From: Pocillopora damicornis
Taxonomy: Eukaryota
Length of the DNA: 64,000 nucleotides
Direction of reading: 5' to 3'
NCBI RefSeq assembly: GCF_003704095.1
Contig: NW_020846293.1
Location: 1-64,000 of the forward strand
Below, in pieces: positions 22,201 to 43,200 of the stretch (within the stretch, counting starts at the first letter, position 1; each line of letters begins with the position of its first letter). The position numbers are program-made.

Positions 22201-25200
22201 TGATACTGATCGAATTCGGCGTAAAAAATGTTTTGGCCGTCGGAAACATCTGAAATCCAATATTTAAGCGCACTGCGGTATTTCAAGGATGCCAAGACTT
22301 CCTTTTCAATGTCACCGATCACGGGTTGTTCAGTTCAGCGACGATACGTTCGTGGTTGAATCGTTCGGAGACTAGGAGGCGCTTTTGAGCTCATGATAGC
22401 AGTCAAAGGGAACAATAGCCAGACAAAAGATGTTCAAATTGTGCGATTTTTTCGAGTTTACATAATCCTAGTCAAACAATGGTGTGTTGAAAGTTTGGCT
22501 CGCGCCCACAAAGGCTCTCAATGTCATTGGCTTTTGTCAGAGTGCTGTCAAATTTGAACTGTCAATTCCTTTTGACAGGCGGAGTCAAATTATATCAAAA
22601 GGAGAGCGCGTAAATGTGTTGTCTTTCAACAAGCTAATTGACATCTAGCATGGCGGCCTAAGTGGTTCTATGCCGCGCGCTTTCATCCGTCCACTTTACA
22701 ATTCCGTGTGCCAAACTTTATGCAAATTTTGACCGCGGAATAAACTTCAGCGTCGGTTTTTAGAAAATCCGCAATACTCCCTCTTGCATCGCTTTTTACC
22801 GTCCCGTTAAGCAGCTGGTACAGTGCAAAGCACCACCCACCGGGCACGTAGAAGAGTTACTTGCATAAATTTCACGCACACAGCACCGCACTTTACATAA
22901 ACGTACATACACCCGGACAAGAAGAGGAAACGAAAGAAGCGACTGACTCTTCTTGGCTTGATGAAGGCACAGATCTGCAACATGGTTCAACAGTGCGCGG
23001 GATGTGAACTGCCCATCTCGGATAAATTCCTTTTGAAGGTTCTGGATCGTGTCTGGCATGTACAGTGTGTCCATTGCTACGACTGCAAATGTGCACTCAC
23101 AAATAAATGCTTTTCCCGTGAAGGAAAGCTGTTTTGTAAGAATGATTTTTACAGGTACGTTGCTCACAATCGGTCGAAATTTCACGTCCGGCAGCTGAGC
23201 TTTAGTTTTCGCGAGCTCTGTGGTAAGCAGCCAGACGATTAATTCGATCATAGTGAATTGAACGGTCTAACTACCTTGTTCTTACTTTCAAATCTTTAGG
23301 CGCTACGGGACAAAATGCGCTGGATGTTGTCTAGGGATCTCGCCGAACGACATGGTCCGCAGAGCTAAACACTTGGTCTTTCACGTGAAATGTTTCAATT
23401 GTTCCAGCTGTAACCGGCAAATTTTGACCGGTGATGAATTGTATTATGTCGGAGAAAGTAAATTCGTTTGTAAAGAGGACTACTACCAATCACACTTCCA
23501 GTCGAAGCAATCCGGTGAGTGCAAAGGGAATTGGTTTGTTTATTAATATACAAACGGTTATTTAATCTTAATAGATCTAATTTTTGTGTGCATGTGTACG
23601 TTGTGTTGTATCATCCACAGACTCGGATTCCGAAGAGAAAGATTTAAGTTACGGTTTAGACGAAGACTTAGATGTGGCGCTAGGCACCAAACGCCGCGGT
23701 CCGCGAACGACTATCAAAGCTAAGCAGCTAGAGGCACTCAAAGCAACCTTTGCCGCAACTCCGAAACCATCGCGGAACATCCGCGAAAAACTTGCGCAAG
23801 AGACGGGTTTAAACATGCGAGTCATTCAAGTCTGGTTTCAAAATCGACGATCGAAAGAGAGAAGGCTCAAGCAGCAAGGAGTCGCGCAACCAAACGCGAC
23901 GCGCGCTGTACGATCAGGCCGGCGATCAAGAAGATCTAGAGGTGAAAACCTTGGAAACGAACCTGCCCCAAACAACGAACAGTCAATCACCTCATCACAT
24001 ATAAATTACGCAGGTAGGCTTGGAACTAACTATGTTTACTCTTCTTCCGTGTTGCAGTTTTCTTTCAGGAAAGAAAAATAATCTTGCGGTTCCTATATTG
24101 CACTACACGTTTGATCGTGTTTTGGACACGGTACGCTTTCACCTGACAGGCGACGTGGCGGAAAATATCGCTGAAATTTAAATGGATAGCGCTCTCGAGT
24201 TTGTATTTAGAAAGCACTCGAAACCTCTTCAACCTGATAACCAGCTAAAGATCACATGACAATCTACCCTTGTGAACTGATGTGAAAAAACTTGCTCAGT
24301 TGCCCTTAGCGATGGAGAAATTTCTCAAGAACGTTTTAATCAGCGCTCCAAGATCGTGTCCCCAAGAAAGCTTCCTGATTGCTTAGTCATTGTTGCAGAT
24401 AACTCAGGGGCAAACCATTAACCGAGCGTCGTACAACTGAAACTAAAAAATGTTTCCTCAAATTTTGGCAAGTGATCAAAAGATACTAAAAATCACGAAT
24501 TTGAATAACTCGAAACCAGCATATCAACCTCCCATTGTTTTTAAAGGCATTATTCAACCATTTTGCCTGTCTTACATTTTTAGCACATTTATGAGAACCG
24601 ACAGCTGCAGCAACAACTTTCGTGCAGAAACAACGAAGCTTTGACACAAAATGCGCTCAGCTAAAAATAGCGTTCAACATGCAACATGGAAAGCCTCGCA
24701 TCCAACGCAAGTTGGCAGGAAATGGCGAAATGGAAATGTTATTTATCTCAAGTTTTGTTTAGTGATAAGGGATCTACTGAAAAAAAATTGTGCATCCCTT
24801 CTTTCTAAAGCTGATTTTGTATGTACTAACTCAGTTGAGGCATTACAAGATTTCACAAGCCTTCGTATGGTGTTTCATATGAATTGGGCCTTTCACAATT
24901 CGCGAAAATTTGCGCTGTACGATGATTTTCTAAAGATTTCGGGTTACTTGTAAAACAAACTCCCCACTGTTAAAACCTTCCATTCTTTAATAATTCAGAT
25001 GGTTTGGCATTAAGCTTTTGGAAGTCAAAAGATATTCCCATCAAAAAGCCCCATCTTTCCAATCAAACGAAATCTCTAGGGGACAATTTTAATTCGTTTT
25101 TCTGCGGGAGCGAGAACAGATTTTTCAAACCATACTTTAACGAATCTTTTCTATGGCAGCGAGGTAGCGCTTGTTTTGTTAATAATTCGACTCAAGTGGA

Positions 25201-40200: not shown

Positions 40201-43200
40201 TGTTCCAAATACAGCATCTATTGGACTAGTAGTCTTGATTTTTTCTACATTACCAACAGCATCTGAACTGTCCTTATCATTATTATTTGTGTCACTGCCA
40301 CCACTACCATCATCATCATCATCATCACCACCATCATTATTATCCTTGTCATCATCACCATCATTACTGTCTTCCTCATTTTCGCTTCTTCTAGTATCCA
40401 AAGATTCCTCACCAAAGTTTTCTTTATTTCTCTCCTCTTCATCCTTTCCATCAACTCTTTTCCTCTTCTGAGATTTTTTGCCTTTCTCAGTTTTGAGAGG
40501 ATTCTGTGTGTTTGAAACAACCTTTGATTTTAAGTAATCCATATCAGACAGTTTAGAATCCTTAGCCATTTTGGCTTCCTCATTATCTTCCTCATTGTGT
40601 TTTGAATAATTCTCTTCCTCTGTAACTCCTTTAACTCCTGCAACAACACAGATTTTCCAATGAAACAAACTCTAGCTGATTCTTTCTCTCCCTACAGTCA
40701 CAAAATATAATTATCTCCTACAAAGAGCAAAACATTGTCATGCAGAAAGGTAAAAAGAAGAAACACTATCATCTAGAGGAAAATATTTTGTCAAATGCCA
40801 AGTTCTTAAGGTTAACTTATTGGAAATGTATAGCAGACAAAATACAGAATTCATTTTCAGAACCTTGTGGAGAAAGGGTTTAGTTGATACTTTTTAAGAC
40901 TGATAGAATTGCCAAGTTTGTATCAATAACTAATAGTTGCTATTTACAGCTATTTTTGTGCTGAAAAATCTATGGTAAATCAATTCGAAGGTCATCTCTT
41001 GCTTTAGTTTGCTTCCTGTGGAGGAAGAACAAAGAAAGGTAAAAGAAGATTGCAGGCCAATGAAGCCTGGTTTTCCTTTCAAAACACATGTACCTGCTAC
41101 ATCATAGACTTCATCTTCATTTTCACTTCCATCAGAATAATCATATTTTAATTGTTCCTCAGAATGCTAAAATTGAAAAAATGCAAAGTTAGGTTAAACC
41201 ATTGTCCAGTCATTAAGAGAATAAATAATGTGAATGACAAGAAAAACCTTCATCAAGAAGTGTATCAATTGAACGAAACAGTTGACACTTCTGACTAATG
41301 ACAATTCATCTGGAGAAGAGTATCATCCATTCTTTTAAAAGTTGGCCCAAGCTGAGCAAAAAAGCAAGAGGGTCTTGGAAGACTTGTGCAAATCCAAATG
41401 TGACCTACATTAACTGAAATAAGCAATGGAGATCTTTGGTTTAGTCCCAATAGGAGCAACTGCAGACAATTTACATGTGTGGGGAAGCTTTGAAGAAAAG
41501 GCATAACACAATAAACGTTAATGAAAGTGATCCTCGCAGTAATGTGCACTACTTAGGCAGTAGTGAAAATAAGGCCTGAAAAAAATTCAGGCCTGTACGG
41601 GATTTGAACCCATGACCTCTGCGATACCGGTGCAGCGCTCTACCAATTGAGCTAACAAGCCAACTGGGAGCTGGTCATGAAGTTGGTTCTGATCACTTCA
41701 CGGGTTTATTTAGAACCAACTTCATGACCAGCTCCCATTTGGCTTGTTAGCTCAATTGGTAGAGCGCTGCACCGGTATCGCAGAGGTCATGGGTTCAAAT
41801 CCCATACAGGCCTGAATTTTTTTCAGGCCTTATTTTCACTACTGCCTAAGTAGTGCACATTACTATGAGGATCACTTTCATTAACGTCTTTATCCGCAGT
41901 TCAAATATATGACTTTCATATATTCTTAACCACAATAAACGTTAATAAACGTTATTCATATTCAATAATAAACGTTATTCATATTCAATGACATGTAATT
42001 GAGTGGCAGGGTATTCTGCAGCTTAGCCGTCCCAATATATACGTCATTAGCTACGTACCTTATTCTGTACTGAAATCTCCTCTCTTCCCTCGCATATCTG
42101 ATTTAAACTTGATTCTGGCTCTCCACGTTCTATGTTATCATTGCTCCAGGTTTGCTTTGAGCCACGGTTTTTATGCACATTTAAGAATTCCTGAAATTCA
42201 ACATCATCCTCCAGATCACCTAAAATTTTCGCTCTCTTTTTCTTTTTCTTATCTTTTTTCTTCCCTAACCCATCCGATTCACAATTTTCTATTTTGATGC
42301 CTTCTGAGTTCTGGGTTATTAACTTCTCGTTCTTTTCTTCGAGGTTCTTCTTCAGTCTCTCGTTCGCAGAACTGCCTTGCGAATATTTGCTCCAAGGCCG
42401 TGGAAGTGTTTCATCTCCAAGGTTTTTAGCAACGTCTACGAATATCTTTGAGGTGTCTATAAACGATTTATTAAAGTGGTTCAGAGCAGATTTCGCTTCT
42501 TCTTCAGTTTTATACCCAATGAACCCAAATCGTCGAAACTTGCCATCCTTTGTATAACATAATTTGACATCCGTTAATTCTCCTTTTGCCTCAAAAACAG
42601 AACGAATCCTTTCTTCCTTTATGTTCTTTGGTAAGTTCCTAACAATAAGCCTCGACATGATCCAATTGCGTGGATTCTCACGAGAAAGACGAGTAGTTTA
42701 TAATTGCAGAGTAATGGTTGGACAGCAATCCGCCATCTTGAAAGTTTGCACGTGTTTTTATTTTATAGTAAGTAGGTGGTGTATGGGAAGTGTAATGTCC
42801 TGATATTTAAAGGAATCTCAACAACATACACCACATGCCTAACCGATGACAGGGATGTCAGAATGGAGGGTAGTTCAAAATCTGTGAAGAGAAAAATCGA
42901 GGAAGTCGATGCTGATGCCAGCGATGAAAAATCGTTGGGCATCAAAAGATTTTTAAGGGCACCCAGAAAAGGTAGGAGATTTTCCAGTGAGTCAGGATGT
43001 TTGTTTCGTATGGTAAATATATTATAAGAATTAATTTTAATTACTTTCCGAACGAGTTGTGGGTCTTTTCTTCCAAAGAAATTACAGTGCAGTGTCAAAC
43101 AAATTATTTAAATTTCGATATCACTCAGAAACTTCCGACTTTTGCAATGTTTTGGAACTTATGTCATCAATTGTTGCACTCAATTCGGTTAATATATGAT

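What the first reader, a model, noticed from the sequence alone, without database searches (positions are those of the whole stretch)
22982..42658. Lhx1/5 adjacent to RBM19, with FBXW8 and COX6A nearby: ancient microsynteny matching human 12q24
Seen: RBM19 is the nearest clear gene downstream of Lhx1/5 with its 3' end facing it, and FBXW8 flanks the other side. Established (from memory): human LHX5 and RBM19 are neighbours at 12q24.1, FBXW8 and COX6A1 also lie in 12q24, and ZDHHC8 and AIFM3 both lie in 22q11.2. Inference: a developmental regulator-bystander pair kept since the cnidarian-bilaterian ancestor, possibly a genomic regulatory block with Lhx1/5 enhancers in or near the 3' introns of RBM19.
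[Added by the scan's program, not by the reader: the finding's places include an assembly gap (unread letters, written N; its length is only estimated) at 39384 to 39393. Whether the letters on both sides are continuous or in frame is not known: test that first.]
Basis: partly seen in the sequence, partly recalled or inferred. Interest (0 to 1): 0.65.

Follow-up and report, generated by a model that had tools for sequence, protein, structure and literature searches.

The report
Coral Lhx1/5 beside RBM19
In this coral genome piece the developmental gene Lhx1/5 sits tail to tail with the ribosome-assembly gene RBM19, a pairing also found in other corals and in jawed vertebrates, and the sequence suggests that an unmethylated zone around Lhx1/5 reaches into the end of RBM19.

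Summary
Lhx1/5 (+, ATG 22982, stop 26343) and RBM19 (-, ATG 42658, stop 32828) are convergent neighbours. FBXW8 lies upstream of Lhx1/5, and COX6A lies three genes beyond RBM19. The 10-N gap sits in a canonical phase-0 RBM19 intron, and 4 of 4 orthologues run without a break across it.

The same pairing is indicated in Acropora digitifera (consecutive accessions, same scaffold) and in Porites harrisoni and P. lobata. A paper reports rbm19-lhx5-sdsl in shark, coelacanth and tetrapods. Anemones, medusozoans, placozoans and invertebrate bilaterians could not be checked, so an age reaching the cnidarian-bilaterian ancestor is likely but not shown. Gene orientation probably differs from vertebrates.

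New evidence: a single 19.8-kb block without CpG depletion (17001-36800, observed/expected 0.94) is centred on Lhx1/5. It covers the last FBXW8 exon and the 3' 4 kb of RBM19, while the rest of RBM19 is strongly depleted (0.15).

Verdict: a new member of a known kind; moderate interest.

The parts
13038..17706 (+). FBXW8 orthologue, the upstream protein-coding neighbour of Lhx1/5. Its last exon is 17137-17706 and its 3' end lies 5.3 kb before the Lhx1/5 ATG.
   Evidence: F-box and WD40 domains. The best solved-structure match is F-box/WD repeat protein 8, 7z8b_F: E 1.3e-23 for the F-box exon and 1.2e-43 for the last exon, aligned to chain residues 418-599 of 600. The start codon was read from the frame.
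22982..23154 (+). Lhx1/5 exon 1 (first LIM domain). An in-frame ATG at 22961 is used in the coral gene models.
   Evidence: Pfam LIM, E 1.7e-14. GT donor read at 23155. 89-97% identity to coral Lhx1-like proteins.
23300..23514 (+). Lhx1/5 exon 2 (second LIM domain).
   Evidence: Pfam LIM, E 1e-14. Splice sites read. tblastn identity 85-93%.
23621..24013 (+). Lhx1/5 exon 3 (homeodomain).
   Evidence: Pfam Homeodomain, E 4.1e-21. 120 hits listed, none named for another LIM-homeobox class. Six representative clusters from five phyla carry Lhx1, Lhx5, Lhx1/5 or lin-11 names.
26057..26343 (+). Lhx1/5 exon 4, the poorly conserved C-terminal part. It ends in Trp followed by the stop codon 26341-26343.
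   Evidence: AG acceptor at 26055-26056 and the stop codon were read. 54-72% identity to coral orthologues. 17 of the 45 best-scoring representatives also end in W.
31941..32245 (+). Nuclear RNase P RNA gene between Lhx1/5 and RBM19. A TATA-like box lies about 30-37 bases upstream, and a T run follows at 32254-32257.
   Evidence: Rfam RF00009, 151.9 bits against a gathering score of 28, model positions 1-301 of 301. Flanks read.
32828..42658 (-). RBM19 orthologue with about 14 coding exons. Approximate exons are 42658-42059, 41166-~41093, ~40637-39883, 38960-38693, 38455-38190, 37601-37401, 36812-36699, ~36580-36450, 36336-~36270, ~35521-35442, ~34417-~34300, ~33835-33730, 33243-33120 and 32895-32828.
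   Evidence: tblastn with Porites, Nematostella, Acropora and one unnamed RBM19 protein. Splice sites and stop codon read. RRM_1 in six exon frames. Named hits are RBM19 or Mrd1. The third RRM exon matches 1whw_A at E 4.2e-31. Ends marked ~ were inferred from nearby GT or AG and not checked further.
38961..39882 (-). RBM19 intron that holds the assembly gap 39384-39393. It is phase 0 with GT...AG ends.
   Evidence: N run located. Donor and acceptor read. Orthologue residues are consecutive across it in 4 of 4.
41589..41813 (.). Inverted pair of tRNA-like genes in RBM19 intron 1 (41589-41661 on the minus strand, 41741-41813 on the plus strand), inside a 373-bp inverted duplication at 41515-41887.
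   Evidence: Rfam tRNA, 59.7 and 62.3 bits. ARAGORN calls both Thr(GGT). Self-BLAST shows the duplication. Sequence read; position 33 is C by my reading.
17001..36800 (.). Block without CpG depletion, centred on Lhx1/5 and inferred to be germline-unmethylated. It includes the last FBXW8 exon, both Lhx1/5 flanks, the RNase P RNA gene and the 3' 4 kb of RBM19.
   Evidence: Two-state segmentation in 200-bp bins: 729 CpG observed against 774.6 expected (0.94). The flanking segments are at 0.07 and 0.15. RBM19 3' exons are at 0.88 and introns at 0.72, against 0.26 and 0.11 further 5'; binomial p 2.8e-15. TpG/CpA excess appears only in the depleted segments, and the GpC control shows no such split.
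48084..51786 (+). COX6A orthologue, three genes beyond RBM19.
   Evidence: Pfam COX6A. Best solved-structure hits are cytochrome c oxidase subunit 6A1 and 6A2. The last exon and stop codon were found with a short recalled motif.

Best explanation
Lhx1/5 and RBM19 are an ancestral neighbour pair that this scleractinian coral has kept. It is probably the same linkage that jawed vertebrates keep as RBM19-LHX5.

The retention most likely has a regulatory component. Lhx1/5 sits in the middle of a compact domain of about 20 kb that has escaped germline CpG methylation. That domain does not stop at the neighbouring genes' ends. It covers the seven 3'-most exons and the intervening introns of RBM19, and the last exon of FBXW8. 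A break between Lhx1/5 and RBM19 would therefore cut either the Lhx1/5 domain or an essential ribosome-biogenesis gene.

Shown: the gene identities, the convergent adjacency, continuity across the gap, the CpG pattern, and the indications of the same pairing in Acropora and Porites.

Taken from a paper: the vertebrate rbm19-lhx5 synteny.

Inferred: that CpG non-depletion here means a lack of methylation, that the block is the Lhx1/5 regulatory or Polycomb-type domain, that it holds Lhx1/5 enhancers, and that the linkage dates to the cnidarian-bilaterian ancestor.
For: Other corals: in A. digitifera, Lhx1-like is XP_015757452 and RBM19 is XP_015757453/54, on a contig of the same length (838,913). 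In P. harrisoni the pairs are KAM7436998/99 with KAM7436995/96 (812,064), and KAM7440289/90 with KAM7440284/85 (1,047,933). In P. lobata they are CAH3103433 and CAH3103428 (4,908,964). In P. lutea and A. palmata the two genes share a chromosome length and their accessions are 23 and 19 apart.

Vertebrates: rbm19-lhx5-sdsl in elephant shark, coelacanth and tetrapods (PMC4492605, passages).

CpG evidence: there is one 19.8-kb non-depleted block. The other seven such blocks span 1.0-4.4 kb; four lie at inferred gene starts, one is the retro-element fragment, and two (50601-51600 and 59601-64000) are unexplained. The switch falls inside RBM19 near 36.8 kb, in exons as well as introns. The TpG/CpA deamination signature is present only in the depleted segments. 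The 3' ends of the DHHC, PNK3P and GTPase genes in the same window are depleted. Low CpG observed/expected as a mark of germline methylation, with ribosome-biogenesis genes low and developmental genes high in Acropora, is from PMC4378018 (passages).

Orientation changes are usual in accepted conserved pairs: orientation is fully conserved in only 15-25% of pairs that are not head to head (PMC3514665, passages).
Against: No lineage between Scleractinia and jawed vertebrates was examined.

Accession order is only a proxy for gene order.

The genes converge here, whereas rbm19 is on the upstream side of lhx5 in gar.

RBM19 introns are at most 1022 bp, unlike the long introns of typical bystander genes.

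Sea anemones show poor microsynteny and gene-proximal regulatory elements (PMC10719294, passages).

The block also covers the FBXW8 last exon, yet by recall FBXW8 is not adjacent to LHX5 in human.

CpG observed/expected is a historical proxy, not a methylation measurement. No enhancer, conservation or contact data exist here.
Confidence: 0.45

Rival explanations
1. Neutral retention. The pair is ancestral but nothing selects for it. Corals and vertebrates rearrange slowly, the interval is short (6.5 kb between stop codons here), and it simply has not been broken. The non-depleted block only reflects that Lhx1/5 is silent in the germline, and that gene-body methylation of the neighbours fades near an unmethylated region.
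For: Two-gene microsyntenies are as frequent in cnidarians as in other clades, while longer blocks are rarer. The block overlaps FBXW8 as well. RBM19 introns are short. Orientation is not conserved.
Against: The adjacency would have survived in two lineages separated since the cnidarian-bilaterian split, although sea-anemone genomes show poor microsynteny conservation. The switch in CpG content falls about 4 kb inside an essential housekeeping gene, not at its end. The three other gene 3' ends in the window are depleted.
Confidence: 0.33
2. Chance re-association. Both genes belong to one ancestral linkage group and came to lie side by side independently in corals and in vertebrates.
For: Only two major lineages are documented. 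Orientation differs. The window's other genes also have human counterparts on 12q24 and 22q11 by recall, which would be expected from chromosome-scale conservation alone (for macrosynteny).
Against: My rough estimate, not a tool result: take two coral neighbours, about four vertebrate neighbour slots and several hundred shared genes in a linkage group. A chance match for one gene is then of the order of 1-2%. At least 378 unrelated conserved pairs are inferred at the origin of eumetazoans, so true retention is the commoner cause of a shared adjacency. The pairing is stable across at least Acropora, Porites and the window's species.
Confidence: 0.17
3. Assembly artefact. The gap at 39384-39393 joins unrelated pieces, so that the RBM19 5' part and the Lhx1/5 side are not really linked.
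For: An N run lies inside the finding.
Against: The gap is in a GT...AG phase-0 intron. The flanking exons are consecutive in 4 of 4 orthologues and lie on the same strand. The RBM19 exons next to Lhx1/5 lie on the Lhx1/5 side of the gap anyway. Other coral assemblies indicate the same pairing.
Confidence: 0.02

Closest known systems
Vertebrate rbm19-lhx5-sdsl synteny with conserved non-coding sequences upstream of lhx5 (PMC4492605)
   Same: The same two orthologous genes are direct neighbours. By recall of the human strands, the RBM19 3' end faces the Lhx gene there too.
   Different: In the paper rbm19 lies on the upstream side of lhx5, while here the genes converge tail to tail. By recall the human interval is hundreds of kb; here it is 6.5 kb between stop codons and holds an RNase P RNA gene.
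Conserved ancestral microsyntenic pairs and genomic regulatory blocks (Irimia et al. 2012, PMC3514665; LHX1 block in Synorth, PMC2745767)
   Same: A developmental transcription factor sits next to an unrelated housekeeping gene. The pair is shared by distant animals. LHX1, the vertebrate paralogue, is described as the target gene of a regulatory block.
   Different: The criterion of four or more major lineages is untested. The putative bystander has short introns. No conserved non-coding elements or enhancers have been shown. Neither Lhx nor Rbm19 occurs in the main text of Irimia et al., and its supplementary tables could not be opened.
DNA methylation valleys or canyons around developmental genes, and mosaic gene-body methylation of invertebrates (CpG observed/expected bimodality in Acropora, PMC4378018)
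   Same: A developmental gene lies in a large non-depleted region, and the neighbouring housekeeping genes are strongly CpG-depleted.
   Different: The block boundary lies inside the neighbouring genes (RBM19 at about 36.8 kb; FBXW8 between 16.5 and 17.1 kb) rather than at their ends. The methylation state is inferred from sequence only.

Membership tests
Lhx1/5 class of LIM-homeodomain genes | Two N-terminal LIM domains followed by a homeodomain | tested here: met
   LIM matches in exons 1 and 2 and a Homeodomain match in exon 3. Each exon was searched alone.
Lhx1/5 class of LIM-homeodomain genes | Closest relatives are Lhx1/Lhx5/lin-11 rather than the Lhx2/9, Lhx3/4, Lhx6/8, Lmx or Islet classes | tested here: met
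   None of the 120 listed hits is named for another class, and identity to vertebrate Lhx1/5 over the exon is 59-76%. Six named representative clusters are Lhx1, Lhx5, Lhx1/5 or lin-11. No tree was built.
Lhx1/5 class of LIM-homeodomain genes | C-terminal tail ending in a conserved Trp (a feature I recalled) | tested here: met
   The window's last exon ends in W. 17 of the 45 best-scoring representatives also end in W.
RBM19 / Mrd1 | Multiple RRM domains spread along a protein of about 900 residues, with best hits named RBM19 or Mrd1 | tested here: met
   RRM_1 in six exon frames. Named hits are RBM19 or Mrd1 apart from one oddly named entry. Coral and Nematostella RBM19 proteins align collinearly over 42658-33121.
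FBXW8 | An F-box followed by a WD40 propeller, with FBXW8 as the closest solved relative over both parts | tested here: met
   7z8b_F is the best hit for both exons. The next natural F-box/WD proteins score about 1e-23 on the last exon and 1e-6 on the F-box exon. No homologue search with names was run for this gene.
Conserved ancestral microsyntenic pair (Irimia et al. 2012) | [quoted passage not shown] | not testable with these tools
   Only Scleractinia and jawed vertebrates are documented. No eukaryotic genome collection was available, and Nematostella Lhx1/5 was not retrieved.
Genomic regulatory block | A developmental transcription-factor gene plus a non-developmental bystander gene | tested here: met
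   Lhx1/5 and RBM19.
Genomic regulatory block | Extensive intronic sequence, with long introns, in the bystander | tested here: not met
   There are 13 introns of 113-1022 bp. The criterion was drawn from vertebrate-sized genomes, so it may not transfer to a compact coral genome.
Genomic regulatory block | Conserved non-coding elements in bystander introns that act as enhancers of the target gene | not testable with these tools
   No other coral DNA, chromatin data or contact data were available. The only indirect sign is the non-depleted CpG block reaching into the RBM19 3' introns.
Nuclear RNase P RNA | A match to the full covariance model, including the conserved core regions | tested here: met
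   RF00009, 151.9 bits, model positions 1-301 of 301.

The most novel reading that the evidence does not exclude
Lhx1/5-RBM19 would be a regulatory block of eumetazoan age, with Lhx1/5 enhancers inside the 3' third of RBM19. That stretch lies within a Polycomb-type unmethylated domain of about 20 kb that overrides the gene-body methylation of an essential housekeeping gene. This would be a cnidarian case of bystander constraint, readable directly from CpG decay. It would run against the view that cnidarian regulation is too gene-proximal to hold neighbouring genes together.
Probability: 0.2. Interest if true: 0.6.

Novelty: new member of a known kind. Interest (0 to 1): 0.38.

Why it matters
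Hundreds of ancient neighbour pairs are known, so one more is not surprising. This one involves a key axial and neural patterning gene. It also comes with a sequence-level mark of where its chromatin domain ends: a sharp CpG boundary inside RBM19. That makes the bystander model directly testable in a cnidarian by bisulfite, accessibility and contact assays on a 20-kb interval. It also suggests that CpG-decay maps could locate regulatory domains of developmental genes in any coral genome without experimental data.

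Tried and rejected
- Sea-anemone comparison. A search with the Lhx1/5 last exon gave only 4 coral-like hits. A scan of 1.84 billion representatives with exon 3, local ranking against the Orbicella protein and a look-up of 10 clusters returned Sanderia, Priapulus, Paramuricea, Phoronopsis, Danionella, Cimex and a nematode, but no Nematostella Lhx1/5. 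The Nematostella RBM19 location therefore has no partner to compare with.
- Literature. Searches were Rbm19+microsynteny (0 papers), Rbm19+LHX5 (2), Rbm19+Tbx5+synteny (4), Rbm19+Nematostella (1, unrelated by its listing), microsynteny+bystander+Lhx (4), Rbm19+Lhx1 (2) and Rbm19+synteny (9). Only PMC4492605 treats the pair, and only in vertebrates. In the TRPV paper RBM19 appears only as a mis-annotation. The Tbx5 paper only says that Rbm19 neighbours Tbx5 in mouse.
- The solved-structure search could not separate Lhx1/5 from Lhx3/4, because no Lhx1 or Lhx5 chain appeared among the hits.
- A hidden protein-coding gene between the genes or upstream of Lhx1/5: 0 of 10 open frames of 79-106 residues matched Pfam.
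- Repeats as the cause of the high CpG in the RBM19 3' part: self-BLAST finds only two repeats of about 41 bp there, and exons show the same switch as introns.
- General dinucleotide bias as the cause: the GpC control shows no split between the two kinds of segment.
- Misassembly at the gap was rejected.

Full report
WHAT THE WINDOW IS. The window has about 38% G+C and two N runs, at 4443-4542 and 39384-39393. The best named protein matches are scleractinian corals (Acropora, Porites, Orbicella) at 87-97% identity in conserved exons, and none is identical. I therefore take it for a stony-coral genome. Nothing in it was taken for human. Every search of a spliced gene used one exon at a time. 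The joined model was not built or searched.

GENE MAP. Open frames, Pfam scans and solved-structure searches give this order:
- a retro-element fragment at 2-1139;
- a DHHC palmitoyltransferase gene at about 8.0-12.7 kb (minus strand);
- FBXW8 at 13038-17706 (plus strand; best solved-structure match 7z8b_F for both the F-box exon and the last WD40 exon);
- Lhx1/5 at 22982-26343 (plus strand);
- a nuclear RNase P RNA gene at 31941-32245 (plus strand);
- RBM19 at 42658-32828 (minus strand);
- a gene with a polynucleotide kinase 3'-phosphatase domain at about 42.9-44.8 kb (plus strand);
- an RWD plus YGR210-like Obg GTPase gene at 47981-45221 (minus strand);
- COX6A at 48084-51786 (plus strand);
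- a gene starting with a Rieske domain from 55273 (plus strand).

Whether the DHHC gene is ZDHHC8 and the Rieske gene is AIFM3 was not tested beyond those domains. Three further exons of the Rieske gene gave no Pfam match at E 0.001.

LHX1/5. There are four coding exons with canonical splice sites, encoding LIM, LIM, homeodomain and a divergent tail that ends in Trp. Exon 3 alone found 1231 proteins at E 1e-10 or better. Of the 120 listed, none is named for another LIM-homeobox class. The named ones are Lhx1 or Lhx5, led by corals at 89-91% identity. Representative clusters drawn from a 1.84-billion-protein scan carry the names Lhx1/5 (Priapulus, Phoronopsis), Lhx1 (Paramuricea, Danionella), Lhx5 (Cimex) and lin-11 (a nematode). 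Seventeen of the 45 best-scoring representatives also end in W.

RBM19. Exon 1 found RBM19 or Mrd1 proteins from animals and fungi; one hit carries an unrelated name. Porites, Nematostella and Acropora RBM19 proteins align collinearly from 42658 to 33121. The last two exons and the stop at 32830-32828 were read directly. Most exon ends abut GT or AG; the others are given as approximate.

THE GAP. The 10-N run lies in intron 39882-38961, which has a GT donor, an AG acceptor and phase 0. In all four orthologues the residues matched to the two flanking exons are consecutive. The gap therefore hides no exon, and the two sides are in order and on the same strand. Its length and letters remain unknown and were not sought.

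Between the two stop codons (6,484 bp) lies a full-length nuclear RNase P RNA gene. It scores 151.9 bits over the whole model, with a TATA-like box about 30-37 bases upstream and a T run after it. RBM19 is thus the nearest protein-coding gene, not the nearest gene. RBM19 intron 1 holds an inverted pair of tRNA-like genes. None of 10 open frames in the intergenic stretches matched Pfam.

IS THE PAIRING SHARED? No eukaryotic genome collection was available, so I used protein accessions and contig lengths as a proxy.
- Acropora digitifera: the Lhx1-like protein and the two RBM19 isoforms have consecutive accessions on a contig of the same length.
- Porites harrisoni: the two genes are 2-5 accessions apart, on each of two contigs.
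- P. lobata: 5 accessions apart on one contig.
- P. lutea and A. palmata: the same chromosome length, with accessions 23 and 19 apart.
- Against: A. cervicornis shares the contig length but the accessions are 302 apart, and the P. evermanni proteins lie on contigs of different lengths.

For vertebrates, a paper reports rbm19-lhx5-sdsl in elephant shark, coelacanth and tetrapods, and mzt2b-rbm19-lhx5 in gar, with the linkage broken in teleosts (PMC4492605, passages). There rbm19 lies on the upstream side of lhx5, whereas here the genes converge. Such flips are common in accepted conserved pairs. Anemones, octocorals, medusozoans, placozoans and all invertebrate bilaterians remain unchecked. In the searchable library, none of seven searches found the pair discussed outside vertebrates. 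The supplementary pair lists of Irimia et al. 2012 could hold it but were closed. Its main text names neither gene.

A NEW LINE OF EVIDENCE: CpG DECAY. CpG observed/expected is a recognised proxy for historical germline methylation in corals. Ribosome-biogenesis and other housekeeping genes score low and developmental genes score high (PMC4378018, passages). A two-state segmentation of the window in 200-bp bins gives one long non-depleted block, 17001-36800, with 729 CpG observed against 774.6 expected (0.94). It is flanked by segments at 0.07 and 0.15. The other seven non-depleted segments span 1.0-4.4 kb. Four lie at inferred gene starts, one is the retro-element fragment, and two (50601-51600 and 59601-64000) are unexplained.

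The block is centred on Lhx1/5, but it includes the last exon of FBXW8 (1.01, against 0.09-0.20 for the preceding exons) and the 3' 4 kb of RBM19. In RBM19 the 3' exons score 0.88 and the 3' introns 0.72. Further 5', exons score 0.26 and introns 0.11. A binomial test on the pooled counts gives p = 2.8e-15.

TpG and CpA, the deamination products, are in excess only in the depleted segments (1.21-1.39 against 1.02-1.12 for the block as a whole and its larger parts; the 570-bp FBXW8 last exon inside it scores 1.26-1.30). The GpC control shows no such split. The 3' ends of the three other housekeeping-type genes in the window are depleted. Self-BLAST finds almost no repeats in the RBM19 3' part.

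HOW IT MOST LIKELY WORKS. I read the block as the unmethylated chromatin and regulatory domain of Lhx1/5. It is about 6 kb upstream and 10.5 kb downstream of the gene, and it overlaps the 3' ends of both neighbours. Under that reading, a break between Lhx1/5 and RBM19 would damage either the Lhx1/5 domain or an essential gene, which would help keep the pair together. It does not show enhancers. The bystander's introns are short. FBXW8 is overlapped too, without (by recall) being an LHX5 neighbour in human. Sea-anemone data argue for gene-proximal regulation and weak microsynteny in cnidarians.

The rivals are neutral retention in slowly rearranging genomes and chance re-association within one ancestral linkage group. 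My rough estimate of a chance match for one gene is 1-2%. At least 378 unrelated pairs are inferred at the eumetazoan origin, so true retention is the likelier source of a shared adjacency.

WHAT STAYS OPEN. These points are unresolved:
- the age of the linkage;
- the real methylation state;
- any enhancer or contact;
- the orthology of the DHHC and Rieske genes;

VERDICT. This is a new member of a known kind, the conserved neighbour pair with a possible regulatory block. The added and testable point is that the CpG-decay boundary lies inside RBM19.

Noticed in passing
31941-32245 (+): A full-length nuclear RNase P RNA gene lies in the Lhx1/5-RBM19 interval, 583 bp from the RBM19 stop codon. 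It has a TATA-like box upstream and a T-run terminator.
   Followed up: yes
41515-41887 (tRNA-like genes at 41589-41661 on the minus strand and 41741-41813 on the plus strand): An inverted duplication in RBM19 intron 1 carries two tRNA-like genes that ARAGORN calls Thr(GGT). By my reading of the sequence, position 33 is C rather than the usual U. By recall, a G34 Thr tRNA is unusual in eukaryotes. They may be tRNA-derived repeats.
   Followed up: partly
11801-13400, 41601-43200, 47601-48800, 53401-54800: Short CpG non-depleted islands (1.2-1.6 kb) lie where genes start. Three of them lie between divergently transcribed gene pairs: DHHC/FBXW8, RBM19/PNK3P-domain gene, and GTPase/COX6A.
   Followed up: partly
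59601-64000: A 4.4-kb non-depleted CpG segment (0.76) lies in the 3' part of the Rieske-domain gene and runs to the window's end. It is unexplained and could be the edge of another unmethylated domain.
   Followed up: no
45221-47981 (-): A gene combines an N-terminal RWD domain with an Obg-like GTPase of the YGR210 type. Its only solved relative found is 1wxq_A.
   Followed up: partly
42863-44757 (+): A gene with a polynucleotide kinase 3'-phosphatase domain lies head to head with RBM19. A possible first exon starts about 200 bp from the RBM19 ATG. No kinase or FHA part was seen in the frames scanned.
   Followed up: no
40308-40379 (-) within RBM19 exon 3: An imperfect trinucleotide array (reported as CAT on the + strand), with a 27-bp period overlapping it, falls in the Asp-rich acidic low-complexity stretch between the first two RRM domains.
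   Followed up: no
35611-35717: A 33-bp tandem repeat (3.3 copies) lies in an RBM19 3' intron inside the non-depleted block.
   Followed up: no
2-1139 (+): Open frames resembling the C-terminal part of a non-LTR retro-element reverse transcriptase, judged by eye. The one frame scanned (549-1136) had no Pfam match at E 0.001. CpG is not depleted here (0.84).
   Followed up: no
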